Assembly: GCA_976551045.1 (NCBI GenBank) | Contig: CDPCPM010000280.1 | Coordinates: 3,286,001-3,350,000 of the forward strand | DNA from: Glaucostegus cemiculus | Lineage: Eukaryota | DNA length: 64,000 bases | Direction of reading: 5' to 3' | In this document: positions 19,750 to 56,121 of the stretch, piece by piece | Layout: every line of letters begins with the position of its first letter | Position numbering within the stretch: position 1 is the stretch's first letter | The notes under the pieces: generated by a model | The model's database searches: none | Told to the model about the DNA's origin: nothing | The model's input: only the letters and a program-made list of their open reading frames with translations | Program-made: the position numbers and the translations under genes

Positions 19750-20870
19750 GACAAAAGAGACAGTAGATGCTGGAATCTGGAGCCACAAACAGCCTGCTGG
19801 AGGAACTCAGTAGGTCGAGGAGCAAAGGAATTGTTGATGTTTTAGGTCAAAACCTTGCATCAGGACTGCAAGTGGAGAAGGGGGACAGCCAGTATAAAGA
19901 ACAGAGGGGTGCAGTTACACAGGATCCTAGGCTGATTAGTGGACTGAAGAGGGGTGAAGAATGATGGGCAAGTCCAGCTAGGGAGGGGAGGGGAGGGGTA
20001 GAGTTGGGAGACATAGCCAGGTGGAGGCAGAGAGAAAAAGGGGAGGCAGATGGAGATGGGTGGGGGGAGGGGAGAGTAAAGGTGGAGACAGCTGTTGGAG
20101 GGTGATAAGTGGGGACACAAGGGCTACCAGTGCTGGAATCTGATAAGTGAAGGAGTGATAATGGGAGTCAATAGGGGGAAGGAGTATGGCAGATAGAACC
20201 AGAACCAGATGGGGGAGGGGTGAGTCTGTGGGTGAACTGTGTGTAGGAGGGGGATGAAGATTGGTCATGGGGGTCTTGGCAGGAAGGGGACAGAAATGAG
20301 AGGACTGAAGGAGGATCAGAGGGAGCTGGGGGAATACACGGGAGGGGAGGGTTACCTAAATTTGGAAAAAGCAATATTCATGCCTTTGGGTTGTGGACAA
20401 CTCAGGTGGAATATGAGTGTTGTTTTTCTAGTTTGCACTGGATCTCTCCCGGACAGTGGAAAAGGCACAGGTTGGTGTGGGAATGGGAAGGGGAGTTGAC
20501 ATGCCATGTAGTTGGGAACTCAGGATGGCCAGGTGCTCTGTAAACCTGGTCTTCAGTTGGTCTTGGTGATGTAGAGGAGACCAAACAGGAGCACCAAATA
20601 CAGTAGATGAGGTCGGAGGAAGTACATGTGAATATTTGCCTGCACTGGAAGGGCTGTTTTAGCTTCCTGGATGGTGGTGAGGAAGGAGATATAAGGACCT
20701 GTGTTGTATCTCCTAAAGTTACTGGGGAAAGTGCCAGGGATCAGGGAAGGATGACTGGGGAGGGCTGAGTGGACCAGAGAGTCATGGAGGGAGTAGTCCC
20801 TGCAGAAGGTGGAAATAGATGGGGAGGAGGAGACGTGGCTAGTAGTGGGATCTTGCTGCAGCTCATGGAA
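19750..20870 (-). mobile_element. Penelope-like element, 5'-truncated: linker, GIY-YIG endonuclease pseudogene and 3' tail with hammerhead
   Basis: Minus-strand translation across frameshifts: FHELQQDPTTSHVSSSP...RDYSLHDSLVHS...GTFP...FTCTSSDLIYCIWCS...GLLYITKT...FTEHL...QHSYS/LIFHLSCPQPKGMN. A pyrimidine-rich 3' UTR and the tail follow. Stops and frameshifts are present. Confidence 0.88.
19833..19868 (-). ncRNA. Decayed minimal type I hammerhead ribozyme (variant core)
   Basis: cagtc-CTGATGC-A-AGGTT-tt-GACCT-AAAAC-ATC-aac. The differences from GAAACGTC/gac are CpG-type transitions. Confidence 0.65.
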
Positions 20871-21589
20871 TACTTGCCCACACCAACAGTGACATCCAGA
20901 TAATATCAGGGGTCCATCTCACTAATTTACCCCTTTGCCTTAAAGGTCAAGTTGGTACAGAATGATTGCCTGCCCTTCCAGACATCAAGGGGGCCCTTTC
21001 AAGTTCCAAGTTTGGCCAGGCCATCCAGTGCACTGTCTGGCTCATCAAACTGAATACATAAGATGACCAGCAGCGTAGTGGAGTCCATTTCATACATCTC
21101 ATAGGATGCCATGCAAAGCCAGGTTATTCTCACTTTTACTCTGAAGATAATATGAATTTATATGCAGGCTACCTTTGACATTTAGCAACACATTGCTGTT
21201 GGATCAATGAGGTGTATTTGGTTTTGTGTGCTATATTGTGGATCTCAAAGGATAAGAGCATCAAGAAAACATGTCTGTCTGTTGTGGTAGCCAACTCTCA
21301 AATGAACTGAAGCTTGGTACAAACAAAGTTCTCATAGTTAACCACATGTCTGAAAGTGATAGTAAACCTTGCACCCTTAAGGTAACGGTTGGACTTAACA
21401 GCTTATTTACGTGAGCCACAAACCATTATTATGTATCTGCTACTTCCCCTGAATAAGAAATGGAGGGTGTGTAAATAGGTGAACATGTTTACTTGAAGAA
21501 CCTATAGACACGAGTAGCTTAATTAATTCTCAACTTGTCAGTCGTTAGATTCAAGAACCTATAATTTTGTACTTAAATATAAGAACTTA

Positions 21590-21706
21590 TCTACTTAGAC
21601 AGAGATTTAAAAAGGCAAGGCATGGAAGAATATGGTCCTAATGCAGACAAATGGGATTAGTGTAGATGGCAAAAAGGCCTGTTTGTGTGCTGTACAACTC
21701 TTTGAC
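21590..21706 (+). mobile_element. Short CR1 3' fragment
   Basis: ggcatggaagaatatggtcctaatgcagacaaatgggattag...ggcctgtttgtgtgctgtacaactct. Confidence 0.75.
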
Positions 21707-22344
21707 ATACAGTACATACACACAATAACTATATCATAGATTTCTTAATCCTCTGAGACTTTCTCAATGGTGCAGATGTATCTGGCACCTCCCACACATC
21801 TGGTCTGGATGCTGGTGATGTTGAAGGATCACCTTCTCATGACATTTCTTTGATTGTGTGTCTCAACCTCACTCTGGCTGCCTTCTGTTCTACAGAGACC
21901 AGTCCCTCAGGATCTTCCAGCAATTTAGTTTTCTGATCACTGTCAGTTTTATATTCATTAACATCCAGGCAAACATATTTATTCCTTTGGATTCCTTTCT
22001 AGAAATCTGCATATTTCATGGATTCAATCCTCCCCTTCTGGATTCTTATCCTCTTGGTCCTCTGCTCATTCTTTTCACTGCTTACTGCCTCTGTTTGCTC
22101 TGTAGAGACCTGTCCTTTGGCTTCTATCTTCACCAGAATGGTTCAAAGGTAATTCTGTTACTCTGAGTGGTAGCGTACTGAGGAGACACCAAGTGATATT
22201 TCATCTACTATCTCGTAAAACTGATTTAGCTCCCTTACTGGACCTCAGTCCGAATTTCAATAATCCTGACCATTCTTCTTGCTGATTCCACTTCTAACTG
22301 ATTGACCCCTTTAAGGTGTACCATTATTACTAATAACCTGTTGG

Positions 22345-23045
22345 AAGACAGACTTCTTTTTTTACTTCAGCAGAGAATGAAGATGACTTGCTTCTACTCT
22401 AATTCTGTGGGTTCTGGTGTATCTGATGAGTGTGATCTGGGATCCACAGATTTTGCCATAAGTGGAGCAGGAAGTGTTTGACATAGTTTGATAAATGGTG
22501 AACTCCTTCTGTGTGCTCCCTACACATGGACCTGTGGTTCTTAGTGCCATCTTGAATCCTCTTTCTCCACTCTGAGTGATTATGGGCCAGGGATCTCCTG
22601 CAGTTGGTGGGGATGTTGTACTTTTTCAAGGAAAAAAAATTCATGGAACTTTTCCTCTGTCTGGCAATCACTTCCTGGAAAGAATGTCTGTTTTGGGAGT
22701 CTGGTGCTGGGCATACACAGAGATCGGCTGTTCAATGGAATCAACTGGGCATAATCAGAATCTCAATGAATATTAGCCTGGGAGAGGATGATGGCATCCC
22801 ACTGGTGTGTTAAGGTGCTTGCTGCAGGTATTCCAGTCTCAGAGGTTTACAGGAGGGCGGGAAACATTGGTAGACCACGAGTTTTGTGCCAGGTTGGAAG
22901 TCTTGATCTGCAAACACCCTTTTCTTCATACAATAAAAGGATATGCTGCTGGATCAAAGGCGATGATGAATTTCAAAATTATTGACTGCCTTTGCTAAAG
23001 GGTGGCATCTGCGATATCGAAAGTGGTCCACGTTTTGGGTGTGGA
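22345..23045 (-). mobile_element. RTE-clade LINE 3' fragment
   Basis: Minus strand MPSTRLPKQT, SLKKYNIPTNCRRSLAHNHSEWRKRIQDG and a decayed C-terminal CSTYGKICGSQITLIRYTRTH motif (ORFs 22399..22671 and 22362..22550), typical of the RTE ORF C-terminus. Confidence 0.82.
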
Positions 23046-23269
23046 AGATACATATCTGGACTGTGACCTCAATGTATTGAGACTGATTCTTATTCAAACT
23101 CTGATGTTTAATGTGGCTTTGTTTTAAACCTTAGCTAACTCTGCTTTGGATCCTATTTCCCATATCATAATCATGGCACTCCTCTGAGTTTTCTCTATTT
23201 TTATTTAAGTGTAAAACATACAGACATTAGCTCTCCATACTCGCTATATTCTGCCAGCTTTTGCAAACT

Positions 23270-23560
23270 TGTGCAAGTATCCTACTTTACTCCAATTACT
23301 TGAGCTGTTTTTATGGAAGAACGGAGGTTTTGGGATTTCCCTGACACTGCTAGAAGATCCTCCAACCTTTTGCAACCATGTGACCTGCAGGTTTCTCACC
23401 TTTTGGATCCATCTGGCTTCCTGGTTCTCCTGCCAAAAATACCCTTGGGATTCTGTGGCCTGGTCTTTGTGAAGAAGACACGGTTTGCTCCCCTGTAAAT
23501 TACTGTTCCTGTAACCCTGCAGCACCATGCTCTCCTACTCGCACTTTGGGCTGATCCAAG
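23270..23560 (-). mobile_element. Possible CR1 ORF1 (esterase-like) remnant
   Basis: Weak resemblance (VIYRGANRVFF..., ggttggaggatcttcta) to the CR1 ORF1 SGNH region. Highly decayed. Confidence 0.3.
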
Positions 23561-25449
23561 CTTGGAACATAAGTATATGCTCAATAGCTAACCTGGATAC
23601 TAATCTCCTTCTCTATGTTTGGTCCAGAAATGTTCCATACTCTTGACAAGTATCCAGTTCACAAAGTAATCTCCAGTTGTTGCCCCTGCATCTGATGACT
23701 AGGCTGAATTTGTCACTTGCAAATATTTTAGATACTGCTGGTTTAAAGTGTAATGTCCTTAATGAAAAGAGTTATTAGCCTATTTGTTGAATTGTATACA
23801 GACAGTTCAGTGCACACAGGTAATACCAAGAAGATGATGATCCAGGATGCGTAATGTAATGCATTCAAAGGCTTGATGACAAGTATGTTGAGGCAACAAT
23901 TGCAGAATAAAGTGTGAGAACAGATGTGTATGAGGACTCCCTGAGGAAGTGATCCACTGGAATTATAAGTGGCAGGTGGAAACTTTAGAAATGTCAAATG
24001 CAGTTTGGAGTAAAGAGTTCAATGAACAAAACGACCAACAGACTGAGCAAATCAGTAACCAGTTGAATGTACAACTGCACATTAATGCAAAGTTAACCAA
24101 TTCTTTTAGTTTATGTGTGTTAGTAATTTACTTTGTGGGTTTACATTTTTAAGGGGGAGCAGTGTGGTGTACATGTTTGTGTAGGATATCTTTAAGAAAT
24201 GATTTGTATCATGTGGTATGACACTTGATACAGCGTTGTTTACAGAGACCGCTGTTTTGTTATGAGTTTCTGTCTTCAATAAAATATGATGTTTACAGCT
24301 CTTGCTCTATTCAAAAACAATACAAAATAACCATAGATACTACAATGATAACAGTTATGTTTTCCAGTTTTGAATGTGTCTTAAATGCCAGTGTCTTCAC
24401 ACTGCCTATTGCTGGGAATGCAGGATGTTAACTACTATACTGTATACACAGTATATATCTGATTCTTGGTTGGTGAACAATGAGGCTTCCATCAGGAATG
24501 ATCACGTTTTGCTTACACAATAACTTACTGTTGTCAAGTTAAAGCAGATTCAGGCTTCATTACCTGGAAGGAAGAGGCAATTGGAGTGTTCATTGCTTTA
24601 CTCTTGGGTAACTTAATTTATAAAGATCAAACCAGAATCAATGACTTTTGAGTCATCACAATGGCTTCCCTCCCAACATTGTTTCATCCTTAAGGCCTTC
24701 ACCTTAGAGAGTGGTCAACTGCTCTGATCTCAATTATGTCTATGACTCCATTCTAGTGGACCTATTGAGAGCTCACCTTGAAGAGTACAAAGTTCTGCTC
24801 TTTTTTTCCTTTGCCTGATTTGAAACATAATACTCCTGTGGTTTGCTTTCAGGTACAAACATGCAAATCACAATTCTGAAAGGGAAGCTTATGACCTAGA
24901 CTTTGAAAATAACTGATCCCATGCATCTTAAAGGAAATACTCTCATACCAAACAAATCAGTATTTGCCTATTAGATTCAGCACACTATAAAACCTAACAG
25001 AGAATTGACAGTTTTGTTATAACACATTTAATTGATTACTACTGTACTTGTGAAACTTAATTTGGCCAAGCACCTATTGAGCAATTGACTCCAAGCCTCT
25101 TTAAGTATCATAGCTGACTGAAGTATGCTTCTAGGAAGAATCTGTTTGCCACAAGAGGACAGGCCTATCTGGAGAGTGTTGCCAAAATCTGCCCTGTCTT
25201 TAGTTTCAGCATCCATGATCAGAAAATGCCTGACTGAATTTTGAGGGGCATGCAAAACAATCCAGAAATGGTTGTTATCATGTTGCACATACTTTGAAAA
25301 GTCAAATTTTATTGATTAGCACTGAAATAAATAGACACAATCAAACATCTAAGCCAACTACTTCCCATGTCTACTCATGGAGGTTATCATCTGCTTTTCA
25401 TCCTAAAAACTGCCATTCAGCATGGTAAGGGATACTCTTCCTGAACTGC

Positions 25450-26350
25450 TCCAATGCCTATAATGATAAAATTCAACTTCCTGTCACAGGGACAGCTGCA
25501 GCATAATGTATCAACAGATAGATAGGAAAGGAAAATGTATTTCCAAATGGGAATGTTGTGTGATTTTGAATCCAGTCTGTACATATTAAAATTCACAAGT
25601 GACAGCTCCCTTTATCTTTTTAGATATTACAGGCTGAGGCATGAAAAGCAAAAAAAAACACTAGATGCTGGAAGTTTGCGGAAAGAGAAATAGAGTTAAC
25701 GTTTCAGGTTGAAGAACCTTTGTCAGGTTGAGGCATCTTTTTTGTGCCAGTGAGATGGCTTCCAAAGATGTTGTCCTCCAGTGAGAAAAATGCATTCCTT
25801 GCAGGCACAAGATATAAATTGGACTGCTGCACATAGCCTGAGTAGTTTATTGGGCACATGCTGTGCAGTGGGTTGCTTCTGCTTAATGAGATTGATCATT
25901 ATCTTTGGGCTGCACTCCAGGAGGCAGGTAAAGAGAACTATTTGGTGTCTTTGAACTGAACAGGCAGAGACAGATAGAGGGCATTGTTCAGCATCACTGA
26001 GGCTACATTTTTGAGATTAGTGTCTTTGAAACTGTAGGTAACTGTTACCAAAACCAACAAGCCTTTGAGATGGTGAAATTTCTTTGCAAAGTAAGGAACT
26101 TACTTTAACTCAAAAATATGCAACCTTCAACATATTTTCATAGCCACAGTAATTAAAGAATATGGTAAGGTAATTTTCTGCTCAATGGTGATCCCAGGAT
26201 ATCCCTGCTGGGAGAATGGGAAATGGTCAGGCTGCTGAATGTCAAAAGTAAAATGGTATGGCTCCCTCTTCATGTACTGCCAGGCAATAGTGCTGTTGAA
26301 GGTAACTTGCCATTTATTATTTCCAGTCCAAGTGGTGGAAAGATTTACTG
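25450..26350 (-). mobile_element. Old CR1-clade LINE fragment (same family as 6920-8556)
   Basis: ctcaatggtgatcccaggatat and ggtaacttgccattt are reverse complements of the gtcaccattgag and caagtaacatt segments at 7.8-7.95 kb. Confidence 0.55.
25643..25727 (-). mobile_element. About 85-bp PLE mini-element (hammerhead plus tail) with target-site duplication
   Basis: Minus strand cCTGACAA-AGGTT-cttc-AACCT-GAAACGTT-aactc has a perfect 5-bp stem II. Flanked by caggctgaggcat (25630-25642) and caggttgaggcat (25724-25736). Confidence 0.75.
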
Positions 26351-28388
26351 GATTTGGGTATACACTACCTCAGTGTTTAAGGTACAAGGTGGTGGAATGC
26401 TTCAAGTGAATTGTAGAGTGGTAAGGTTTGTCTGATAGTATGCCTTTTCTTTAAAGTCTCTCACCTTCCTTCTCTTCCTGTCCTCCTCCTCCTCTTTTTC
26501 TGCTTTCTACAGTCACTTTTCTCCTACTCTCATTGTGGTGAAATTATGTGGTAAACAGCAGTCAATGCCAAAGTGTGAAACCTTTCCTGGAGTTCTGCAG
26601 AGTGCTCCCTGAGTGAATCAGACAGTAGAATCTCCACCTGCGCACCCTGTTGTACTGTCCATTTAGCTTCAGGTTGACCTGAGCCTGTGATTGTAACTGA
26701 ATTCTCCAGGACAAACAGCAAACCAGACCGCCATAAGGAGCCAAGGATAGAAGTGACATCTGTTGTGTTCCCCAAGAATCATCTGACTGTCCAGCATGAT
26801 GTCTGGAATATAATGATACTAGCACACTACCTAATAATGATCGCACTCTGTGAAGTCCCCATGCATGGCATTAACCAAGAGGATTTTGTTGGAGCCTAAA
26901 AAATGTGCTCTATGTTTACATATGGAGTCTTTTTTTTATCTCCTTTATCTCTTGTTTGCCTAGAAACTGGACTTTAGCATTTGAGGTGCACTAAATGGGT
27001 GCTGATTATTACACTAACCCCAAATCAGAAGTCCTAAAGAAACTTCAGCAAATTCAAACAGTCTTCCTCTAAGAAATCATCATTGTGGCTTGCTCCCATT
27101 TAGAGCAATACAATTCGACTGGTGCATTTGACAGGTGGTGACTGCTTGCTTGATGGGCAGTTGCTGCTTCATTTGTGTGTTTATTCACAGGAGCTTTTAA
27201 AGAGATCTGCCAATTACAGCTATCACGGAAATGAGGAAGAATGGGGAGGGAACGTGGAAAATGGAACTTATGACACTTGGTTCCAGCGGTTGACCCACCG
27301 CACACACCCTTCTTTCCCCCTGCATCAATGAAGCAGGCCCAATGACATCCCATGATCACGGATAAGCCCAGGTCCTGTAGTTAATCAGCAGCATCAGGTC
27401 ACAGACGGAGGAGTCTGTGAATTACTCTTACTGGTTCACAAAGCTTCGATCTTTACAGAGGCCTGCTGACACCTTTTTTTTGAAAAAAATCTTTCAAAGG
27501 ACTTTTTGAACATAAAGCCATAACCTAAGGGATGCTTTAAAATCATGCATGGTTCACTACTGTCAGTGTGATGTACTTTCCATTTTATGATGAGTTAATC
27601 ACAAAGGTTGTAGATTGTGACCTATTGTTAAATAACTACGAGTATGTTGTTCACATTGATGACTTCATCATAAACATGGAATATGTTGGGTGAATAAAAC
27701 TTGAGTTAGGGTGAATCTCACTTGGAAGTGGCTGACTGTAATTCCTGATGGGCAGGACTTCTGCTGGGAATGGGTAAAAAATCTTTGAAACTTTATATGT
27801 AATTTATCAATACAAACAGATGCTAAATTAATTGATTCTTTATCCATGGGCACTGAGATGGTGGATCCTCATTCTCACAATGCATTATGTGGTTTAATAC
27901 TGATATGTGTTAAATAGCTTAATTTTGAGATTCTCTTCCCTTTTGAATTCCCATATTGGAGGAAAAAATGATACCCTGTTGATTTTCTGAATTTCTTTTT
28001 TTCATAAATATTGTTCTCATTTATTACCATAGTGTATTGTTAAAAATTGTATTTATAATGTCTGTATCTTCTTGTGATTTGAATCACTAGGCTAGGTTGC
28101 CCTCCAGCACCTCAACTGCATGGCTATTTTTCATGTGTGGGTTTATGTGTCAGCTAGCTATTTGACTGCTTGGGGAATCATATTCTTGACCTTACACAGA
28201 TTTAGTCAAATATTTGGTTACTTCTCAACAGCACCACTGGATGACACACAGTCCTGGGACCACTAAATACTAAAAAAAAATTGCATTTCAATTACATTTC
28301 TGTTGATGAAATTGGAAGTAAATACACAATGATTGTGACCGTCATTAATGGTCCCATTGTGAGACAGGAACAAACAGATAAAAAGTAG

Positions 28389-28578
28389 GTGAGGCAGCAC
28401 CAGCAGAAAAAGTGTAACAGAATTAACATTTCAGGTCAGAGACCACTTATTGTGACAATGAGTCTGCAATCTGAAATGTTAACTCTGTTTCCCTTTTCTC
28501 AGATGCTGCCTGCGTGTTTCCGTCTTTTTTGTTGTTTTTATTTCAGATTTCCTGCACCTTCAGCATGTTTTAACTTTT
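28389..28578. mobile_element. PLE-derived inverted-repeat element with perfect 14-bp target-site duplication
   Basis: Arms 28416-28434 and 28471-28489 are 18/19 complementary. Flanked by cagataaaaagtag at 28375-28388 and 28579-28592. Confidence 0.8.
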
Positions 28579-28769
28579 CAGATAAAAAGTAGTTTTTGAG
28601 AAGCTGACCTATTAGTGTGACAGTAAAATATACAAAGCTGGACTATATTATTTTAAATTATATTCAACACAATACTCCTGCCACTATCATTTGTTCAGTT
28701 CCCTATCTTCCCCTTCATTGACTTTAAAATGCATGTCTTCTTTTGAAAGCATCTTGAAGACCTCAGCCT

Positions 28770-29050
28770 ACAGAACCCTCCATGGCCTAATTTGTGCCCA
28801 ATAGCTACTGACTCCAGCCTTTAGTCTGTCACATCACGTTTTGCTAATAGTGTGTTCAGACATCATGGTTTTTGCATTCAGCCCTTCAAATTCCACTTGT
28901 TACCTCTTTTGTCACTTACAAATGCCTCCTTCTTGACATACCTTCACTCACCTTTTCACAACTCTCATTGAATGTTTCTGTCTATTCAACTTTGGAGATC
29001 CTCACAGCTATGGCCGTGATGAAAAATGCTTTTCGATTACTATTATTGGG
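28770..29050 (+). mobile_element. Possible very old L2 3' fragment
   Basis: Weak resemblance to an L2 3' end (ccctccatggcct...ctttggagat...gtgatgaaaaatgctttt). Confidence 0.3.
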
Positions 29051-29229
29051 AGTGGATGGATCCCTATGCATTGGGACTGCACTGATCCCTGTCCAATTGG
29101 TTGCAGATTAAGAGGTTGGGAAATAGCTGGGAAACTGCACAAACTAGTGCATTAAACATACTTAAACCATGAAACAGAAACTCATCCTTGATCCCCACAT
29201 AAAATGACCATATTTTCACTTTTCCTTAT

Positions 29230-29512
29230 GACATGGAAGGAGGCCTCTCCAGCCCACCAAGTGTATGCCAGCTCACAGAGCGATCACAGATTCTACCAGT
29301 CACTTACACATACTTGGGGCAATTTACAGTGGCCAAGTAATTTACCAACCCCAGTGTTTTTGGGGTGTCGGAGGAACCAGAAGACCTCGGCAAAATCTTT
29401 GCAGTTACACGGAGAACACGCAAACTCCACACAGATGACATTGGAGGTCAGGATTGAACCCAAGTTGCCAGAGTTGAGAAGCAGCAGCTCTACTAGCTGT
29501 GCCACTACCCTC
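29230..29512 (-). mobile_element. V-SINE (HE1-like), intermediate age
   Basis: ggggcaatttacagtggcca...acacggagaacacgcaaactccacacaga...ggattgaacccaag...tagctgtgccact is the reverse complement of tail, V-domain and tRNA head. Confidence 0.85.
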
Positions 29513-30085: not shown

Positions 30086-30304
30086 CATGATCATTATTCT
30101 TTAAAAATAGAATGTCTCTCAAATGTTTCATCCATTCATTGTTATAATATGGGGGGAAAAAAGGAAGTTTTCAGTTCAGCAGTGTATGGCAAGAATATGT
30201 TTAGTACATTAAAATAAAAGAGTTTAGTCAATTATTTTGAAGTGGGAGTTCATCAGGTACCTGACCAAGTTAATCCTATGAAATCCCTTGGCTGTAGTGT
30301 CGCT

Positions 30305-34218: not shown

Positions 34219-34321
34219 TAAAATAAAAACAGAAATGCTGTAAGTACTCAGCAAGCTGGGCTGCATCCATGAGAAGAGAAACATCGTTAACATTTAGGCC
34301 AAAAACCCTGCATCAGAACTC
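34219..34321 (-). mobile_element. PLE mini-element (hammerhead plus tail type B)
   Basis: Minus strand gagtt-CTGATGC-A-GGGtttttggCCT-AAATGTT-aac...gatgcagcccagcttgctgagtacttacagcatttctgtttttatttta. Confidence 0.72.
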
Positions 34322-35860: not shown

Positions 35861-37516
35861 ATGGGTGCACAATAAAAATAGGCACGAGTGATTCACATTG
35901 ACAATTATAAGCAAATAGAACCTGAAGCACAGAGAAAAATAGCACCCTGCAGCCCAATTTCATGGCCTTTATCTGTTAGCTGCTGTTTGCTTTAAGCAGC
36001 TGAAAAACGTTGGAGTGTCAATTCTGGAGCATGCAAAAATAACAGATGTTGTGTTAAGAGATTCCTTTAGGACTGATGTCAAAGTAGCATTGTGCCCACA
36101 TTGTGCGTATTTGTGGATTACCACTTAAGACAGAAGCTATAGGAACTCCAGAGTGAGAGTCAGCTGGCCCTGCATGACTTTTTACCCATCTATTTACTGA
36201 AAGGTAAATCATCATGACCTCTATGCTCCGATAACCACAATACACACCTATTACGTGAAACACGGATATGTAAAATCTGGCCCATCTGTAATAAAGTTAC
36301 GATAGGCCATCACATTGCAGTAAAAGTTCAATGCTTCAGTACTGATTTTCTTGACACTTGCCTTTGAAATTCATCCTGATGCATGGAAACATACTTTCTT
36401 TGTGAATGTAAGTTATAGTAGATAATGGAATTTAGTGATATGTGATGGGATGGGTGAGAGGGATTTTCTACTATGCTAAAATTATAATTATATGGCTTCT
36501 GAATCCACACTTGTATCTTAAATCCCAGCTTCCTTCATCAGCTTCTGTGAAAGCAATATTTCCCTTGATATCTTCCAGAGGAGATTCTCAGGAATGTGTT
36601 GATATTTGTCAAGGCAGGGAAGGCAGGGTGAAATTTGTGGAGTTTATGGACATTTATAGGCCATTTCTCTGGCAGTATGCTGATATTTTGGGGATGGGAG
36701 GGAGGAGTGGTGCAGCCCAGGTCTGCCTGGTTATTTGTGTGGAGGTGATGCTGGGAATGAGTTGATGTTGTAGGACGTTGTGCAGCATTGTGATGATATT
36801 TGTGGGTGGAGAAAGAGGAGGATGGGGGTGGTCACAAGGAGGATAAAACAACATGGTTTCTAGGATAATCCTTCTTGGTAACACAGCTGAATTAAGCAAT
36901 CTTACTGTTCTGTCTGAAGGAGTCTCCTATTACTATTTTTGACCTGGTCCTGCTCTTCTATCTTTTATCTTTTCCTCCTTTCCAGCATATCTTCCCCCCT
37001 TGCCAAGCTGCTGGCAACATCAGCATTGGTGCCAAGTCATGAAGATCTAGCAAGCCACTATAAGTGTGGAACTCTTCTGAACTATATCTTACGGCATCTC
37101 CAGACTGATTCAAATATTGAGTCAGAACACCTATTGTGAGCTCAATAATCTTTTGTGCTCCTTCATGCCTCTCATTGTAGGATAGTTCAACATGCTGTGA
37201 AAATGATACAGTGATATTAGTAGCCAGAATGTCAGAGGGTAAACCTTGTCACTTAACAGCCTACCACTCACTAGTCTGGACCTGTAAGTCAAAAATTAAA
37301 TGCAGGATGCTTTTGTTAATCCATGAAGTACATAGCATAGAGTTCTGTTTCTACGTACTAATCTTGGAAATTTGGTGAATGGGGAATTCAGCACAGTGAG
37401 GAAAGAGGTGCTGTTTTTAAAACCAAGGAGCAGCCCAAGACACAGAGTGGGAGATAGCAAGAGCTGTGAGCAGGGATAAAGGAGCAAGGTGAAGTAAACA
37501 GACAGAGAGAAAAAAG

Positions 37517-38557
37517 GAGACACAAGTGACTGCAGATGCTGTAGTCTGGAGCAAAAACCAAACTGCTGGAGGAACTCAGTGGATTGAGCAGCATCAGTGG
37601 AACCAAAGGAATAGTAAATGTTTTAGGTCAAGACCCTGCATCAGGACTGAGAGTGTACATGTGAAATAGCCAGTTTAAAGAGGTGAGAAGGAGTGATCAG
37701 ACAGGGGCTGGCAGGCAATAGGTGGAACCAGGTGAGGTGGGGTGAAAGGCAGATGGAACCAATTGGGGGAGAGGATTGGAGACACAGTTAGTATAGTGTA
37801 TGGATGAAAAGCAGAGGGGACCAGGTGGGGAAAGGGAGAACCTGGTGAACTAGAAGGAGGGAGATCGGAGCACAGGCAGTGTGGGTACCTGAATTTGGAA
37901 ACCACAGGGTTGTAGAGTACCAAGGCAGAATATGAAGTGTTGTTTTTCTAGTTTGCGTTTAGTCTCACCCAGGCAGTGAGGAGCCCGAGGACAGACAGGT
38001 CGGTATGGGAATGAGAAGTTGAAATGGCATGCAAACAGGAGCTCAGGACGGCCATTGCAGATGGAGCGCAGGTGTTTCGCAAAACAGATGCCCAGTCTCC
38101 CCAGTCTTGCTGATGTAGAGAAGGCAACACCGAGAGCACCAAATGCAGTAGTCGAGGTTGGAGAAAGTGCTTGTGAACCTATGCCTCACTGGAGGGGTTG
38201 TTCAGGTCCCTGTATGGTGGTGAGGGAGGAGGTGTAGGGACAAGTGTTGCATCTCCTACAGCTACACAGTAAAGTGTCAGGGGACAGGGATGGGTGAGTA
38301 GGTAGGGTATGAGCGAACTAGGGAATCATGGAAAGATGGTGGAAAGCAGGAAGTGGTGAGGAGGGGAAGATATGACTGATGGTGGGATCCTGTTTTAGCT
38401 GGCAGAAATGATGAAGGATGATGTGCTGGATGTGGAAGCTGGTAGGATGTAAGGTGAGGACCAAGAGAACTCTGTTCTATCTGGAGGGAGGGGGAGTGAG
38501 AGCAGAAGTCTGGGAAATGGCAGAAATGTGATTAAGGGCTCCATCAACCACAGCAGA
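37517..38557 (-). mobile_element. Penelope-like element, 5'-truncated: thumb/linker, GIY-YIG pseudogene and 3' tail with hammerhead
   Basis: Minus strand SAVVDGALNHISAISQTSALTPPPSR*NRVLLVLTLHPTSFHIQHIILHHFCQLKQDPTISHIFPS...FTSTFSNLDYCIWCSRCCLLYISKT...FAKHLRS...HSHTDLSVLGL...FIFCLGTLQP. Colinear with 19750-20870. Confidence 0.9.
37613..37649 (-). ncRNA. Decayed minimal type I hammerhead ribozyme (variant core)
   Basis: cagtc-CTGATGC-A-GGGTC-tt-GACCT-AAAAC-ATT-tacta. Stem II is intact. AAAAC/AT derive from GAAAC/GT by CpG-type transitions. Confidence 0.68.
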
Positions 38558-46990: not shown

Positions 46991-47212
46991 GTCAAAGTCA
47001 AAGCTGAGGTCAAAGTCAAAGTCAAAGTTGAGTTTATTGTCATATGCACAAGTACATGTGTGCACAGGTGCAATGAAAAACCTTCTCGCAGCAGCATCAC
47101 AAGCACATAGCATCATATAAGCAGCATCATACAAGAAAAACATAAATAAACATAAATCATACACAATTTTTCCAAGCAAGAACACAACTAGAATAAAAAA
47201 AGTCCATTTTAG
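46991..47212 (-). mobile_element. Non-LTR retroelement 3' end with (TTTGAC)n tail
   Basis: Minus strand ends gcatatgacaataaactcaactttgactttgactttgacc...tttgactttgac. Low apparent decay. Confidence 0.7.
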
Positions 47213-50200
47213 TTCATTTGAAAATTTAGTCCATTTGAACTCCAACCTCTAGTGTAGGACTTGAATCCACAAACATCTGCTTCAAAATATTGGATATTTA
47301 ATGTCATTTTGCTTGGAAGAAACCACCAGAACTGTCGGTGCTGTATCAGCCCAGTATCATGCAGTGGAGACCAGACTCCAGCCATTCTATAACCAGTGCA
47401 TATTTGGAATGGTTTGAGATGAATTCCAGGGTGAAGGCATAACTTAACACCCAGCCTGGTGTGACTATGGCTATGCTTCACCCGCCTCATCACCATTATA
47501 TGACTAGATTCATTAGATCAGTATGCAGCAAAATAGAAAAGGGAAAAATTGCAAAAAGATGAAAAATGATGGAACAATGCAGTCTCTTGGAAGGGAAAAC
47601 ACTTGATAATAATGTGTTAGCTGGTTATTCTTGTTAAAATTTGTTCCAACACCAACAGATCTCTCTGCACTTTTTTTTGATTAATGATATAACTAAGCAT
47701 GAAGTACCAGAGCTAAGAACAGGCCTTCTGAAAACATGTCCCTTACATATCCACACTTCTCCTCTCCCCACCATCATCACCACTTCCTCAAAACCAGGCT
47801 CACAAATGGGATGATCTGGCAAATGGGAAACCAAAGTAAAACATCTTTGATAGAACGTTTGACAACTTCAGGAACTAAATGTCTCTCGGTTTTTGTGGGA
47901 TGGTCACACTCATTTCAGGGTGAAATGCAACAGGTGTTTTAAAGAAATGTGCACACATATGATGCAGTATGACACACATCACCCTTGTAAAAATTCAGCC
48001 CTTTACAAAACCATACTATCATGAATCTCAGCAGCTCTAAATTCAAAGAAAAATCTGGGACCTGTATGTGCCTTACTTCAGGAATGCCTGACTTGCCAAC
48101 CCTGTCATCCACTAACTAATTTCCTTGAAGGCACTGATTACAAAATGAGCTGTCACATTGCTGACTAGGAACATGAATTTCCATGGCAACAGATTTGCAG
48201 AACATGAGCTGCCAGTTTCACTTGGTGCAGTTGTTTAACTAAATTATCTTTTTTTTAAAGAAATTTAATTGCAAGATGTGGCTGATGTGTTGTTCCTGTA
48301 GCACGTGGCTAATCACAGCAGCAATGCTGACAAGACTGCTGACACAGACTGCACCAGGGACAGTTTCATATTTGACAACATGGCAGGATTGATACCTGCA
48401 ACACTCTTCCTTGTTTAGCTTCAGAGTGGGGGTGGACTGGACTCTATTTTTTTTTAATACAAATCTGTAAAAACCTGAAAATGCAGATTCAGTTCCCACA
48501 CTGACATAACTAAAACCAGTTGCCATTCTGGCAAGATATTGGATTGTCATTTGCCATGCCACTGGATAGTGTTGTCTGGCTTAATGGCATTGTAAGGTAG
48601 GATTAGTGAATCATTGCCATCATCACTTTCCAATGTGTTCAGCTGAGAAAGCCATTGACTCTTTGGAGTCAGACTAAATGGGGGCTAGTAGCTCCCCTGC
48701 TCCATTTCCAAATAACCATTCTACATGAAAATCTAAGCAGTAAGTATGAAGAGCATGTTTAATAGTGGAATCAGTACAATGGCAGAGGCCAGTGGAGATC
48801 ATTCAGATATGGAGTGTATTCAATGATGATCCTATTTCATTGATGGAATTTGTTTGAGCAACATCTGCATTATTGCCATGCCTAATGTTGGGGATTACAT
48901 CTTTTCCAAACAGAATCTTAAGTGCAGGAAAACTGACTGAACTTCCTCTTCCTAGCTCGGGAAAATTCCAATCGACCATATTCCAATTTTATTTTAGAAC
49001 TTCTGTTTCATGTTTCTTGTTTATGCATTCAGGCAATGGAAGGAAGGGTAAAGTTGTAAAACATAAGGTATTAAGATATGAATCATATTGCATCATGCTG
49101 TTGTTTATACTTGACTCAATTTCAATGCAAAATGAAATGTGATCAAAAATCAGAGAATGTATTCAAGCTGTACAAAGTTCATATGGACACCTCTATGATT
49201 TTCAATGGCATAAGTATGGTCTGGGCCAAACTATCCATCTCTGCCATGCACTTATTGCCCCATTGGTGGCAGATGTTCTGCAGGTCCCCCATTGGACATC
49301 AGCCATAGCAGAGACCACAGAACTGAAGCAGAATCAAGTCATCCTCAACCCTGAGAGACTGCCTATGAAGAAGGTACCCAAAGGATTTGGGATAGTTGAT
49401 TTTCTGTAGATTACACGTGAAAATGACCTGCTCTGCCTTGGTGTTCAAGGTGCTGTTTCAGTCCTGTGGCACTATTAAATGCCAGTGAGTTCTCCTGCAG
49501 TCTTGCCCAATATTAGTCCCTGGGCCAAACACAAAAATAGATTAACTGGCCATACATTTCATTTCTGTTTGTTGTGTCAGAAAGGCTGCTGCATTTGTCT
49601 TTGATAGATTTAAGACATAGATAGATTTAAGACATAATGTGAAATGATGGAGCTAATTCAATATGATATGATCAGAAGCATTAATATTTTAAATTCCTTT
49701 ATAATAAAATTTTATATTTGCCCAAATTTTCTGTACATCATACTTTAGGGATATTATTTTTATTCTCACTATATAGATGGCCATTTGACCTTAAATTATC
49801 CGTAAGTCAACACCACAGGGGATTTACAAGTATTTGACAAATGAATTATATGAAAAAAGATATGACAATTGGGAATATGTAAGCTTTGAGTATTGTGGCA
49901 GCCTTTATGAAATACAGCAAAACAAGTACAAACAAATGGATCTTTTCTATCAAGCACTTTCTCAATTTGCAGATCAATGTTGTTTTAAAGCTGGAAAAAA
50001 TCCTCTCCACTTTCTTCATATCCTGGCAGCCTCTACTTTATTCCTATGGATGCCATACCCTTTAAGGCCACTGTCTCATCTGTTTTTATGACTTCCAATG
50101 AGAACACTGAACAACAGTCAACAAAGAGGATGTCAAGGCCTTGGTGCCCAAAAGGCAGTGTGTTTAATGATTATAAACACGGTGGCGGCAGATTGACTCC

Positions 50201-50591
50201 ACAATGACTTGTGGCTGTAAACAATCTTCAGCCAGTTATAATAATGACTTATTGATATAAAACAATGTTTATTACAAACAGTCAAAGTGCTGTCTGCCGT
50301 CTTTATGAAAACTAAGCATGTCCTCAAGAAGAGACAAGAATCATGGGTCTTCGGTGTTGTCTTTTGTTGCTCTGGCACTATTACAGACATATAGCAGAGT
50401 GCCTCCAATGGTTCAGATGCACAGTCACCAGCCACTGTTGAAGCCACACAGAGTTGCAAAGTTCTTTTGTGAAATATCCCTGGGACAGAGTCATTAGCAA
50501 GCTCAGCAACTTTTTGGCCATCTCTCTTTGCCCTTGAGCTACCTTTCTGATCTGCTGCAATCTGTGTGAAGAAATTAAATTCCCAGTGCTC

Positions 50592-50760
50592 CAAAATCAA
50601 AATACTGCATATTGCTGTAAATCTGAAATAAAAACAGAAAATGCTGGAAAAATTTAGCAGGTCAGATAGCAATTAAGGAAAGAGAAACAGTTGACGTTTC
50701 AAATCATTGTCCTGAATGTTTCTTTTGCCACAGATATTTCCAGCATTTTCTGTTTTTACT
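50592..50760. mobile_element. PLE-derived inverted-repeat element (tail type B), hammerhead centre largely deleted
   Basis: Perfect 22-bp inverted repeat 50629-50650 / 50737-50758. gttgacgtttc is retained on the left arm. Confidence 0.75.
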
Positions 50761-52164
50761 CCCACAATGCTGTCATATAGGAAGAACCAGGAGTTTTATC
50801 TTGTGTCAAAGAACTCATGGTAATATATGTTCAGGTCAGGACAATGTATCTTGCGTTTGATCCTTGTCACTAATTTCAGAAGATCTAGTAGTTGGTATTC
50901 CAGAGCTGGCATGGGCTAATGTTATTGACTGGAAGCTTTAGGGTTCCCTGTCCAGATTGCTGTCTGGTTGTTATTCCTGATGGAAACTGTACTTATTGGA
51001 ACATCATTTAACCACAAGATTAGTTTCAGCTGTATAATCTCCTTTTGCATAGATGAATAATCATTCAATATTCACAGGCCTGGTACAGCATATGGCCTAG
51101 AAACTGGCTGCTGGAAAGGCATGTTCAATGGGTGGTATGTGCCATGCCCATTGCTGCAAAAGACAAAATACGATTTTCCATGAGGCCCAGGCATTGTTTG
51201 TAGTGTCAGGGCCTTACAAGCTTTTTCTCTGCAATGGTGGAGAGAGTAGAGGTATATGCTTGGTTTGTGTGGTGGAAAGGTCCATGTGGCAGAAATGGGC
51301 CAAGACGATTTTGGGTGTTATTTGTGAAATGATTGGAATGCCATGGGTTGGATACAGTATTGGTGAGGAGAGGCTGATGGGAGCTGGGATGGGGTGGTGG
51401 GTTGGGGGTGGAGGGTGTGAAAGACATGTACTCGGCTGTGAACGATTGAGAGGTGTGTGGTCGGAGGGGACGGGAATGGTAGGTGGCCTGAGGGGAAGAT
51501 CAGAAGATCCCCTTCAACTTATGATGAGGAAGGCCTTACATGTCTTGTAAAGTCCTGTTTTGTCTTAAGTGACCAGTCTAGGCCTCAGTAACACAGTAGT
51601 TAAATGACATGGTGCTTGAATGTGCAGTGCCGTTGGTCATCGCTGGTCTTGTCCAGGCAACTTTTTGCATCAGTACACCAGATGCACAGAGCACATGGAA
51701 GGAAAATCATGGACTTTGTAAGTTGCAATGCCCTGGTCTCAAATCATGAGTTGTGTGGCAGATGTTAAAATTGTGTTATGTGTTATAATTTCTAGGCCAC
51801 AGTGAGACAGTGGATGGAGTTGCCTGCTAGTGTACAGAAATTGACAACAAAACAAAATAAGACAAAAACCAAAGATATAAAAAAACCTTGTATTTTACAT
51901 TCAGACCATGAATGAATATTTTTGTTTAAATTCAAGCTGGAAATCAAATTCAGGAGAAAGTAATTTCAGCACCAGCTAGTGTCTGACACCTGCCATAAAT
52001 TAGTGATGGCTGACATAGCAATTTGAAATGAAATATTCTGACAGGAAAGCCCGACCAGAAGTCTTGACAGTGGGAAGTAAAGTTACAGGAGAGGAAGGGT
52101 ACATCCCATGCATGTTGTTAACTATCACAAAAAGAATGTCAGAACCACAGAATTTTAACTAACA

Positions 52165-52565
52165 GCTGTGGCTCTAACCACTGAATCAGTAGGTTGTGGG
52201 TTCATCTGATTCCAGAGATTTGAAACCTAGGCCAACACTCTGGTGAAGTAATAAGGAAGAGCAACGTTTTCTTTTTGAATGTGATATTGGATCAAAGCCA
52301 TGTCTTCATATTAGTGGGTACTAAAGAAGCCATGATGTTACTTTGAAGAACATAATTATTTACTATGCCCTAGTCATCCAATGTGACAAAGGAATGATTA
52401 TCTATCTATTATTACATTGCTGTTTGTTTGAGTTTGCTGTATACATATTGACTTCCACATTTCCTATATTGCAACAGGGAATATATATGAAATGTACTTA
52501 ATTTGCTATAGAGTGCCCTGGGACATCCTGGGGTCATGAAAGTTGCTGTATAAATGTAACTTCCT
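52165..52565 (+). mobile_element. Deu-domain SINE, near full length
   Basis: ctgaatcagtaggttgtgggttca...ttccagagatttga...cattgctgtttgtttgagtttgctgt...tgggacatcctggggtcatgaaagttgctgtataaatgtaac. Confidence 0.78.
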
Positions 52566-53094
52566 TATAAAAATACATACAAAGGCAATGCTAATACCTC
52601 TGTCTTGCTTCATTGGTGGGACAATCCAAAACAAATCTTTCTGTTATACTCTCCCTATACCCGCATTTCCTTCTTGAGCATTTATATACCTTTTCTTTCT
52701 TTTAATACACAAGGACTTCTTTTGTGTAGAGTCCAGCAGTCAGACTAGTAATAAATGCTCAGACAGTTTTCTGTTAGTCTGCCTGGATGTAATTGAATTT
52801 AAGTACTTAAAAAAACCTAACACAGAATCCCGAATACAAATAAATCTATGAAATGCCTTTTGGTCTACCAACTGAGTAACATGGAGGAGTCTGATAATAA
52901 GATTAATTTGGACACCTTTAAGTATGTGATATTCAAGAGCTTCATGAATACAGGTCTATGTTTTGGGCATTTTGGCATACTGCCCCTTTTTTGCAATATG
53001 CAGGGTTAATAGTCGAATGCTTCTGTGGTCCAATTTCCATATTCACAAAGGAAATAAATGGACCTACAGAAATCATAATCTGGTGATAAATCCA

Positions 53095-53670
53095 GTGGTG
53101 AAAAGTCCAGAAAGCTAGGGCTCATGGGATCCAAGTGGTGTTGGCAAATTGGCTTGGTGATAGGAGGCAAAAGATGGAGTAGTGCATTCATTTCTGGTCT
53201 CTGCATTACAGGAATGATGAGTTAGCATTAGAAAGGGTTCAGAAGATATTCACCAGGATGGTGCCTGGAATGGAGAGTTTTTCTTATAAAGAGAGATTGG
53301 ATAGGCTAGGTTTATTCTCCTCGGAATATAGTGGGCTGAAGGATGACCTGAAAGAGGTTTATAAAATTATGAGGAGCATAGGTAGGGTAGATGGTCAGTC
53401 TTTTTCCTAGGGTGGGGCAGCATAGGTTTAAGGTGAGAAGGAAGAAGTTTAAAGGACATCTGTGAGGTAAGATTTTCACACAGAGGGTGGTGGTTATATG
53501 AACCAACTGCCAAAGGAAGTGTCAGAGGCAGATACAATTGCAATGTTTGAAAGGTACTTGGATAGGAAAGGAGGAGAGGGATATGGGCAAATGGAATTAG
53601 TTGTAGGTAGGCATCATGGTCAGCATGGACTAGGATCATGGGTCATGTCTCTGTACTATATGCCTCTATT
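53095..53670 (+). mobile_element. CR1 LINE 3' part with internal deletion
   Basis: gctcatgggatccaag...ttggcttggtgataggaggca (RT region) is joined to IHFWSLHYRNDELALERVQKIFTRMVPGME...ERLDRLGLFS...DLKEVYKIMR and the 3' tail. Confidence 0.9.
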
Positions 53671-53679
53671 ATGGCTCAA

Positions 53680-53960
53680 TGACACATCTGAATTAGAAAG
53701 TTGTGGGTTCAAGCCTCGTTCCAGGATATGAGCATATTATTTAAATTTTAACACTTCAGTCCAAAGGCTAATAGAGTGCTGCACTGATATAAATGCTGAC
53801 TTTTAGATGAGACTTTGTGTGATGGCCCCATCTGCTTGTTCATGCAGAGCAAAAAAGATCCTGTGGCACTGTCTGCAATGGAACTGAGAATTCTTCTAGT
53901 GCCTTGGCCTCATTCAACATTACCAAAAATAGATTTTTTGGGTCACTGATTCTGTATGCA
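53680..53960 (+). mobile_element. Deu-domain SINE 5' part
   Basis: gaattagaaagttgtgggttcaagcctcgttccagga...gagtgctgcactg...ttttagatgagac...aaaagatcctgtggcact. Confidence 0.72.
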
Positions 53961-55333
53961 AACTGATCACTGTGGTTGCCCATATAATAAACATGGTCTC
54001 CTCTCAAAAGTACAGGTCCTCCCCAGGTTATGACAGGGTTCTGTTCCTGTGAACTGTTCATAACCCAAACAGTCTGCAAGTTGGAAATGTAGCTGTGAAC
54101 CGAGTTCCCACACTACAGAAGATGGCTGCAGCCCTGCATCAGCCATCAATCTATCTCATCAGTCTCTCAAATACTCAATTATATGTACAGCCTGGGCATT
54201 CGTAAGGTGGGAAGAACCTGCAATCCCATATGTGTAACGTCCTGAGACTAATCATGCACAGTGTAAATGTGAGCAATTCTTTCTGAACTTTGCCCTGACT
54301 TTATTGAGGAGTAAGACCATTCTTGCTCATTTCAGATTATAGTAAAGTGGCTGTCTGCACAAATTGTAATGTACAAAAAGATATCTACAGCAAGAAAAAC
54401 TGTGCAGGAGGTTCACTGACATCTGGAATCACCACAAGACTGAGGAGGGCATCACAAAGTCCTGCATGCGTTGATTGATTGTTTTTCTTCTTTGAAAAAT
54501 TAATGGAGTCACAGACTGCAATCCCAGAAACTGGCAAATCCCAACCCTCTCACTCCCTCCCAAATCCAATTCTCATATACTAAAGTTGGGGTTTTGCCTG
54601 TAGAGGCACTATAAATCAATGGTCTTGCTGACAATGTGTTTGGCACAGAAGGCAGTTCTTTTGCTTATTGTGTGGTGTCTCAGCACTGTTAAAAGAAACA
54701 TCCAGGAGAGTTGGAAGAGTTAATGACTGCTGACCATATAGTGTTTGCCAACTTGGAGAAATCACTGCTCCACCCACCCACCCCTTGAGAGCATGAGTCA
54801 GACTACAACTGCCAAACTAGTGTTGTAAGGGAAGCCTCGTCTGCTCATGCTGTAGTAACAAGTCTAACGCTTAAGGCCTGACATGATGCTGTCATTAGAA
54901 AACAGATAGAATCAGGTATAATTGTCAGCTGGAAAATATTACGTCTGTGAAAGAGGTAGCAGCCTGTGTGGGAATATAAAGGAACAATTCACTGACTATG
55001 CAGACACTATTTTTAAATACATGTATATACAAAAAATAAAATTTATAACTGGAGTTATGGGGATTCATTTCCCAAAAAGTGAATTAAAGAAACTGAAATT
55101 TTCCCAAACAGCGTCATTGTGAAACAGCCGTATACATATCACTGCAGTCTATCATGTGTGCAAGCTGCAGACAGAACCCAATAAAATGGCTCAGTTTTCT
55201 TCATTTGATTTTTCATTCCACCTCTCTTGAAGATGTTTGATCTTGCTGATGTTCTCAATCAAGGGCATGAGCATCTTTTACTATCTCAATTAAATCTCTT
55301 TCCCTTTGAAAGGCTATGAATGCCTGTACAATT

Positions 55334-55450
55334 GGAGCTTGTCAGTTTTTTATTGTTAGTTAAGAGTATTCAGGGGTAAAGGCAGGTATAGACCAGCAAA
55401 TATCTAATTGACTGGAGGAGCTAAATGATTTTTTCCTGTTCCTAAGTTCC
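55334..55450 (+). mobile_element. Short CR1 3' fragment between 12-bp direct repeats
   Basis: ttgttagttaagagtattcagggg...ctaattgactggaggagctaaatg...cctgttcctaagttcct. gcctgtacaatt occurs at 55322-55333 and 55470-55481. Confidence 0.55.
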
Positions 55451-55991
55451 TCAGCAACTATTTATATGAGCCTGTACAATTAGGTTTTGCAGACTGTTTT
55501 ACTACAGAAGGCTGACAATGATCCCATTTACCTGGTATTCACATGTGTACTTTCCAGGTGGCATCACCTGATAGAATTGGGTGTGATGACTTTGGCTGAA
55601 TTATTCGGTCCCCAGCTCCTTGACACCCCATTTGTGACTATGGCAGAAATTGGCTTTCAGGATATCAAACCTACTCTTCTACTCTGTTATTAGGCATTAA
55701 GCAGATAGCTGCTTTGTCACAAAGGAGCAGCCAGTAAATTACAATTTAAATTGTCCAAAAGCGTCCACAAGAAATCAACCTATAGATCTTTCTTAATAGT
55801 TACAAGGATTTATTTCCTCTTCCAAAGATAATTTGTTTCCACATTCTTTCCAGTAACAGAATCTGGGAAGTCTCAACATTGACCAGTCCATGATTTGAAT
55901 GGAATGAGACAGACAGCTACAATTATTACTTCCTCTAATATGTGCTTCTTCATCCTGCTCTATCTACTGGAACTTGGCCAAAAATATCTTG

Positions 55992-56121
55992 AAACTAATG
56001 CATGGTTTTAACCTGAATCGTCAACAATTCCTTCCCCAATGGTTGATGCTGCTCCACCTGCTGAGTTCCTCCAGAAGATTGCTTGTTCCAGATTCCAGCA
56101 TCTGCAGTCTCTTGTGTCTAC
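55992..56121 (+). mobile_element. PLE mini-element (hammerhead plus tail type A)
   Basis: CTAATGC-A-TGGTT-tt-AACCT-GAATCGTC-aac...gatgctgctccacctgctgagttcctccag...ccagattccagcatctgcagtctcttgtgtct. aacttggccaa is repeated at 55971-55981 and 56129-56139. Confidence 0.78.

What the first reader, a model, noticed from the sequence alone, without database searches (positions are those of the whole stretch)
19833..56025. Recurrent non-canonical hammerhead core (CUGAUGCA) in a Penelope-like family
Seen: four separate copies (19833-19868 minus, 34286-34320 minus, 37613-37649 minus, 55995-56025 plus) read CT(G/A)ATGCA before stem II. Copies at 4053 and 8946 have canonical ...ATGAA, and 25726 has CTGACAA. 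Undoing CpG-type transitions gives gtc-CUGAUGC-A-GGGUY-uu-GACCC-GAAACGUC-gac, i.e. helix I, helix II, a palindromic ACGU helix III and a GUC cleavage triplet. Known: PLEs carry minimal type I hammerheads thought to act as dimers, and A9 of CUGANGA is nearly invariant. Inference: A>C is a transversion unlikely to recur four times after insertion, so the source element transposed with either A9C plus an extra A, or a C inserted between G8 and A9. This could be an uncharacterised natural ribozyme variant, or a lineage that stayed mobile with a weakened ribozyme. The variant also occurs with both tail types.
Basis: partly seen in the sequence, partly recalled or inferred. Interest (0 to 1): 0.72.

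Follow-up and report, generated by a model that had tools for sequence, protein, structure and literature searches.

The report
Altered-core hammerheads in Penelope retroelements
An old family of jumping genes in what is likely a ray or shark genome spread widely while carrying a change at a normally fixed letter of its small self-cutting RNA, and a sister family did so with a different change, which suggests these elements can move with a likely weakened cutter, though cutting itself is untested.

Summary
The CUGAUGCA core is real and inherited. It is the consensus of two old subfamilies of a Neptune-type Penelope-like element (C in 91 of 100 and 73 of 100 listed copies; 684 exact matches genome-wide), whose protein stayed under purifying selection (dN/dS 0.16). 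Background A>C equals A>T (26 vs 25), so there is no hotspot. Three window copies belong to this lineage. The fourth (34286) has an ancient tail that is 93% A and is probably sporadic. All four have further core lesions and are predicted dead. The 'canonical' copy at 4053 is not canonical: it reads U4A, the mark of a second large subfamily (about 1,300 matches). Normal elements have two A's after G8, so the variant is A9C with the spare A kept; that A likely stands in for A9. Best reading: a weakened ribozyme whose fold was kept while transposition tolerated poor cleavage. Activity is untested. Neither variant turned up in ten literature searches, but Lünse 2017 could not be read. An earlier scan note on other DNA of this genome mentioned one unspecified shared core change.

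The parts
19750..20863 (-). 5'-truncated remnant of the younger C subfamily (Ca): decayed GIY-YIG end of the ORF, 3' UTR, hammerhead, tail
   Evidence: blastn to the subfamily consensus, 77% over 1,114 nt; decayed EN motifs in translation
19833..19868 (-). Hammerhead relic with C at position 9 (19857); also G10.1>A, C11.1>U, G12>A, G16.2>A, G1.1>A: predicted dead
   Evidence: sequence, read against the consensus
37516..38557 (-). 5'-truncated remnant of the older C subfamily (Cb): linker, CX4CxxC motif, GIY-YIG end, UTR, hammerhead, tail
   Evidence: 79-83% to the Cb consensus; translation; tail hits
37611..37649 (-). Hammerhead relic with C at position 9 (37638); also C11.1>U, G12>A, G16.2>A, C17>U, G1.1>U: predicted dead
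55995..56119 (+). Terminal fragment of Ca, truncated at C3; C at position 9 (56001); G5>A, G10.1>U, A15.1>U; no 5' strand of helix I: predicted dead
34223..34321 (-). Terminal fragment of an ancient A-type family; C at 34310 is probably a post-insertion change; G12 lost
   Evidence: clusters with the ancient family, 1 C in 38 members; that family's listing 93 A, 4 G, 3 C of 100
4050..4169 (+). Terminal fragment with the second variant core CAGAUGAA (U4A at 4054), preceded by an inverted tail copy (3964-4056, minus strand)
8946..9010 (+). Heavily decayed ancient A-type hammerhead/tail relic; end approximate
   Evidence: sequence; weak match to another ancient tail
25644..25731 (-). Decayed ancient A-type relic, G8 lost
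   Evidence: sequence

Best explanation
The C at hammerhead position 9 is an inherited, fixed feature of two subfamilies of a Penelope-like retrotransposon that spread through this genome long ago, and it likely left a weakened ribozyme that transposition tolerated. Shown: C is the subfamily consensus, the subfamilies kept a selected protein, and the rest of the core and helix II stems were unchanged between them. Inferred: normal relatives carry two A's after G8, so the second A likely takes A9's seat against G12, with C looped out at the sharp G8-A9 turn. The RNA would still fold as a minimal type I dimer but likely cut less well. The element could afford this because efficient self-cleavage is likely not required for insertion. 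The four window copies are predicted dead relics.
For: Consensus. No hotspot: 26 C vs 25 T in an A-type family. Autonomous lineage: RT-like motifs upstream; Ca vs Cb ORF end, 230 codons, pS 0.172, pN 0.031, dN/dS 0.16. Fold kept: 0 changes in 31 core and stem positions between Ca and Cb, the one change lying in loop 2; P=0.003 at the synonymous rate, 0.03-0.05 at flanking rates. [quoted passage not shown] Weakening: helix I shrinks from 5 bp (A-type F3) to 3-4 (Cb) to 3 (Ca); C perfects a competing hairpin, predicted at up to 0.27. A sister subfamily fixed U4A (92 of the first 100 of 1,434 matches). Dead-ribozyme mutants still insert in vitro in a Poseidon element (PMC11167929); Naiads proliferate without canonical hammerheads (PMC8557442).
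Against: No activity data. The conservation is not specific to the ribozyme: sequence on both sides is conserved too, so the excess is only marginal against flanks. The ORF tree does not resolve the C families as one clade (10% of bootstrap trees), so 'unchanged since C arose' assumes one origin. The young A-type family F1 also has a 3-bp helix I and a GUU site, so a short helix I does not prove weakening. Folding energies ignore tertiary contacts. The in vitro insertion result comes from another clade.
Confidence: 0.5

Rival explanations
1. The variant is catalytically dead. The sequence stayed conserved for an overlapping non-catalytic role: an internal promoter, a binding site for the element's protein, or a splice signal.
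For: Two different 'invariant' positions were fixed in sister subfamilies, and U4A has no spare base to rescue it. Flanks are nearly as conserved as the motif. Penelope has an internal promoter with Inr and DPE in its repeat (PMC2377424). An Inr-like TCAGTC overlaps helix I and a pyrimidine tract ending in CAG-ATG follows it (seen in the sequence; motifs recalled, untested). Cleavage is dispensable in vitro.
Against: G8, G12, C3, G5, A6, A13, A14 and A15.1 are unchanged in all six family consensuses although synonymous divergence between families reaches 0.57. The ancient family shows a compensatory C-G to U-A change at the base of helix I, which points to selection on RNA structure in the clade.
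Confidence: 0.25
2. The variant is a fully working ribozyme. In this clade the second A is the true A9 and the first is a free bulge, so A>C is neutral.
For: The second A is fixed in every group while the first varies. In the standard core A9 stacks directly on G10.1, where the second A sits. Core and stems are unchanged between Ca and Cb. The lineage reached roughly 10^4 copies (estimate).
Against: No natural insertion between G8 and A9 appears in the text read (PMC3088659 section 8; figures not seen). Published minimal hammerheads place the free base after A9 (PMC4209133). It does not explain U4A. The two youngest families examined have CUGANGA cores.
Confidence: 0.2
3. C arises repeatedly after insertion, by a hotspot, palindrome repair or conversion, and the sources had A.
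For: C perfects a short inverted repeat; 3 of 100 ancient-family copies have C and none has T.
Against: 91% C and 1% A in Ca; A>C equals A>T in family F1, which has the same flanking bases; C tracks tail, UTR and ORF type.
Confidence: 0.03

Closest known systems
Minimal type I hammerheads (min-HHR) in pLTRs of metazoan Penelope-like elements (Cervera and de la Pena 2014, PMC4209133)
   Same: Position in the terminal repeat, short helix I, extra base before G10.1, G10.1-C11.1 pair, palindromic ACGU helix III, GUC site, many dispersed truncated copies.
   Different: A9C (two subfamilies) and U4A (one subfamily) as consensus states. The core variant described in the text read was U3-A8. Motif searches that demand CUGANGA, as in PMC8557442's core search, would miss both.
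Neptune-clade endonuclease-positive Penelope-like elements (as defined in PMC8557442)
   Same: [quoted passage not shown]
   Different: No intact or tandem full-length copy was found; the clade call rests on motifs read by eye, not on an RT tree with reference elements.
Natural hammerhead core variants (Perreault et al. 2011, PMC3088659)
   Same: Rare natural core changes exist, some with low but detectable activity (A6C, an insertion after A6, U15.1-A16.1).
   Different: A9C, a G8/A9 insertion and U4A are not named in the section read; here they mark high-copy mobile families rather than single sequences.
Small PLE hammerhead variants that cleave as dimers (Lünse, Weinberg and Breaker, RNA Biol 14:1499)
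   Same: Same class and proposed dimer mechanism (title seen in a reference list).
   Different: Paper not held; whether it lists A9C or U4A is unknown.

Membership tests
PLE minimal hammerhead (min-HHR) | C3-G8 pair, U4, G5, A6 (C lineage) | tested here: met
   Ca and Cb column counts
PLE minimal hammerhead (min-HHR) | A at position 9 (CUGANGA) | tested here: not met
   C in 91 of 100 and 73 of 100 listed copies; met only if the next A is renumbered as A9
PLE minimal hammerhead (min-HHR) | One extra nucleotide between G8 and G10.1 beyond A9 | tested here: met
   two bases between G8 and G10.1 in all groups
PLE minimal hammerhead (min-HHR) | Helix II opened by G10.1-C11.1, then GAAA | tested here: met
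   predicted pairing 0.72 (Ca) and 0.92 (Cb) in the 38-nt unit, lower with more flank (0.52 and 0.04)
PLE minimal hammerhead (min-HHR) | Palindromic helix III and NUH site, helix I closing the motif | tested here: met
   ACGU, GUC, helix I of 3-4 bp
PLE minimal hammerhead (min-HHR) | Located in the terminal repeat of a PLE | tested here: met
   downstream of the ORF end in 39 ORF-linked copies of all types, of 55 ORF-end hits listed
PLE minimal hammerhead (min-HHR) | Self-cleavage as a dimer | not testable with these tools
   needs a bench assay
Rfam hammerhead families | Covariance-model match | tested here: not met
   no hammerhead hit in the window at E up to 5; intact genomic copies were not scanned
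Neptune-clade EN+ PLE | RT domain | tested here: met
   decayed RT-like motifs in long C-type copies, read by eye with recalled motifs
Neptune-clade EN+ PLE | C-terminal GIY-YIG endonuclease | tested here: inconclusive
   VY...YIG with CCHH-like residues in the consensus translation; Pfam gave no GIY-YIG hit on 4 natural fragments
Neptune-clade EN+ PLE | CX2-5CxxC linker between RT and EN | tested here: met
   CX4CxxC in the Ca, Cb and F3 consensus; definition in PMC8557442
Neptune-clade EN+ PLE | Placement in an RT phylogeny with reference elements | not tested
   no reference PLE proteins were at hand
Neptune-clade EN+ PLE | Tandem full-length unit with two pLTRs | tested here: inconclusive
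   no shared sequence behind C-type tails among fetched loci; the longest copies reach about 1.8 kb upstream of the ORF end

The most novel reading that the evidence does not exclude
This clade is a natural mutagenesis series of the hammerhead core: A9C and U4A ribozymes that still cut in vivo, A9C by a register shift that proves the 'extra' base of PLE hammerheads can be the working A9, perhaps helped by the element's own protein. CUGANGA-based surveys would then have missed whole high-copy ribozyme families.
Probability: 0.3. Interest if true: 0.72.

Novelty: new variant of a known kind. Interest (0 to 1): 0.5.

Why it matters
What the hammerhead does for endonuclease-positive Penelope elements is stated to be unclear (PMC8557442). 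Here sister subfamilies that differ by one core letter each reached high copy number, so a short cleavage assay gives an answer either way. If the variants are dead or slow, retrotransposition in a vertebrate germ line did not need efficient cutting. If they cut, two supposedly fixed core positions are flexible in nature and standard searches undercount these ribozymes. The window copies themselves are inert debris.

Tried and rejected
Rfam scan of the window: no hammerhead. Pfam on 4 natural ORF fragments: no PLE domain. Independent C families with other stems: none; 98 of the first 100 of 387 matches have the same 12-nt stem and loop length and read as decayed copies of one stem. Full-length or tandem C elements: none among fetched loci. 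Tree of 34 single copies: unresolved; consensus trees did not settle whether C arose once, twice, or reverted. RNA ends at GUC: no pile-up in one ordinary RNA-seq run, 18% of it read, both strands covered alike; such a library of mostly dead copies cannot show cleavage, so this is no evidence. No indexed holder was on record as RNA. One search listed no alternative letter at position 9 for organisms E-H, which the tool says does not prove identity. The CAGGCC group first taken for a family shares long flanks on both sides and is a passively duplicated F3 copy. I first labelled the element Poseidon-type; the CX4CxxC linker moved it to Neptune. PMC11014351 (sections 22, 23) had nothing on position 9. 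The CTGATGCA at window 39270 has no tail match and was left out as chance.
Full report
Observation. The four copies read CT(G/A)ATGCA at the stated places, with position 9 at 19857, 34310, 37638 and 56001. Each has further core lesions: G12>A at 19833 and 37613, G12 lost at 34286, G5>A and A15.1>U at 55995. None is expected to cut. Rfam finds no hammerhead in the window. The window lies in a 2.85-Gb genome. A shark or ray is my inference from recalled repeat types; earlier scan notes say the same, but they are not independent evidence.

What carries the motif. Upstream of 19833 and 37613 lie decayed ORF ends. Subfamily consensus translations are open and end in a CX4CxxC linker and a VY...YIG domain. 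Longer copies elsewhere show RT-like motifs. By the definition in PMC8557442 (passages) this is a Neptune-type Penelope-like element. The call rests on motifs read by eye; Pfam gave no PLE hit on 4 fragments.

C is inherited. The exact C pattern has 684 matches, control 0. The A pattern has 3,455 and G or T has 173; the A and G/T patterns left position 7 free, the C pattern did not. With position 9 free, one tail type (Ca) gives 91 C, 6 T, 2 G, 1 A in the first 100 of 163. A second (Cb) gives 73 C, 7 T, 1 G, 19 A in the first 100 of 376; 7 of those A's have the F1 core and 10 have a tail that fits decay of another A-type family. In family F1, C and T are equally rare, 26 and 25 of 51, so there is no hotspot. 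In 60 stretches taken at round coordinates (600 kb, large contigs, four of them flanking the window), 4 of 33 near-complete tails had C. That scales to roughly 19,000 copies, with wide error. 387 copies keep every other core base and the GUC site.

Copy 34286 clusters with an ancient family whose listing is 93 A, 4 G, 3 C of the first 100 of 333; its C is probably a later mutation. Copy 4053 reads CAGAUGAA. A search for non-U at position 4 found 1,434 matches, with 92 A, 5 C, 3 G in the first 100. These form a subfamily with its own tail and an upstream stretch like Cb's. So a second 'invariant' change, U4A, was also fixed and amplified.

History. Median non-CpG tail divergence is 15.4% (ancient, n=43), 14.8% (Cb, 55), 11.3% (U4A, 28), 10.0% (Ca, 92), 8.7% (F3, 63) and 4.0% (F1, 40). 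Many of these copies were picked by exact patterns, which biases ages down. The variant families are old, and the two youngest have CUGANGA cores. Ca and Cb differ at pS 0.172 and pN 0.031 over 230 codons (dN/dS 0.16) and at 80 of 393 aligned UTR bases, so the lineage stayed protein-coding. Trees did not resolve whether C arose once: the C families were one side of a branch in only 10% of bootstrap trees, and a single origin was not excluded. Six coded organisms hold at least half of the sampled words of a Cb copy. In runs of four of them, A made up 24-27% of laid DNA depth and 630 of 2,000 RNA reads at position 9; no other letter was shown there, though 39 table rows were not displayed. This is biased towards the C query, and one organism may be the source of this genome.

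Structure. PLE minimal hammerheads have an extra base between 9 and 10.1 (PMC4209133). Here normal families have two A's after G8, and the second is the consensus in all six groups. The variant is therefore A9C with the spare A kept. In the standard core A9 forms a sheared pair with G12 after a sharp turn from G8 (PMC11300833, passage). With the spare A, the predicted C9:G12 Watson-Crick mispair is 0.001-0.02; without it, 0.61-0.96. The spare A is thus placed to act as A9. This step is inference. Between Ca and Cb none of 31 core and stem positions changed and loop 2 changed once: P=0.003 at the synonymous rate but only 0.03-0.05 at flanking rates, and the test assumes one origin of C.

Signs of weakening. 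Helix I goes from 5 bp in F3 to 3-4 in Cb and 3 in Ca. The double-hammerhead energy goes from -19.9 to -15.7 to -13.9 kcal/mol, and none of the three is the lowest-energy dimer fold. C perfects a competing hairpin, predicted at 0.27 in Ca against 0.08 with A. U4A has no spare base, and single changes in the CUGA turn gave low activity in a pairwise scan of another hammerhead (PMC9901934, passage). That A9 substitutions strongly slow laboratory hammerheads is recalled, not read here. Against weakening: young F1 also has a 3-bp helix I and a GUU site.

Mechanism. The most likely reading (0.5) is a minimal dimer-type ribozyme whose fold stayed under selection but whose cutting was reduced, on an element that did not need efficient cutting. 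In a Poseidon element the ribozyme needs the protein to cut, and dead mutants still insert in vitro (PMC11167929, passages); Naiads thrive without canonical hammerheads. Rivals are a dead motif kept for promoter, binding or splice reasons (0.25; PMC2377424 passages), a fully active neutral bulge (0.2), and recurrent mutation (0.03).

Literature. Ten searches returned no description of A9C, a G8/A9 insertion or U4A in a natural hammerhead. Seen: PMC4209133 parts 1-2 of 4 and 2 of 3 supplement files, no hits; PMC3088659 passages and section 8; PMC6765202 passages and half of section 11; PMC11014351 outline and sections 22-23; passages only of PMC11167929, PMC8557442, PMC9901934 (supplements listed, not read), PMC11300833, PMC6155905, PMC2377424 and bioRxiv 10.64898/2026.07.22.740005. 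Lünse 2017, the survey most likely to list such variants, was not held, and figures and alignments of the other papers were not visible. Novelty is therefore provisional.

Verdict. A real, inherited core variant of a known kind of ribozyme, with a second variant found beside it. Activity is unknown and the window copies are inert. New variant of a known kind; interest 0.5.

Noticed in passing
window 4050-4169 (+); L343-L372: Second core variant U4A (CAGAUGAA) as the consensus of a subfamily, about 1,300 pattern matches, with a 5-bp helix I.
   Followed up: partly
L251 (G000:C19:18194001-18199000, minus strand): Six head-to-tail 37-nt copies of the C-type hammerhead unit: a natural multimer, but with the helix III palindrome decayed in five.
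   Followed up: no
family F1, e.g. L033-L041: The youngest family (4% tail divergence) has a GUU site and only 3 bp of helix I before a mismatch.
   Followed up: partly
all families, just 3' of the cleavage site (e.g. window 37590-37615, minus): The 3' strand of helix I sits about 21 nt before a pyrimidine tract ending in CAG then ATG, like a branch point and splice acceptor; cleavage would fall just before the putative branch A. Motifs recalled, untested.
   Followed up: no
Ca consensus: Both derived changes, A9C and the loop-2 C>U, perfect short inverted repeats, as template-switch mutation in a master copy would; the loop change also gives a UUCG loop.
   Followed up: partly
window 3960-4170, 28390-28560, 50600-50760: Fold-back arrangements of PLE tails (inverted truncated partner), typical of PLE insertions.
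   Followed up: no
window 55966-55995 and 56125-56140: Similar short sequences on both sides of the 55995 copy may be a decayed target-site duplication.
   Followed up: no
L032, L042-L053: An F3-type copy with a changed helix I sits inside a larger unit duplicated many times with its flanks.
   Followed up: partly
L108 (G000:C12:20000001-20010000): Long open frames resembling retroviral pol and env; only seen, not examined.
   Followed up: no
run X24 on L294: One variant with two linked changes makes up about a third of the reads in one direction, suggesting a single highly transcribed copy.
   Followed up: no
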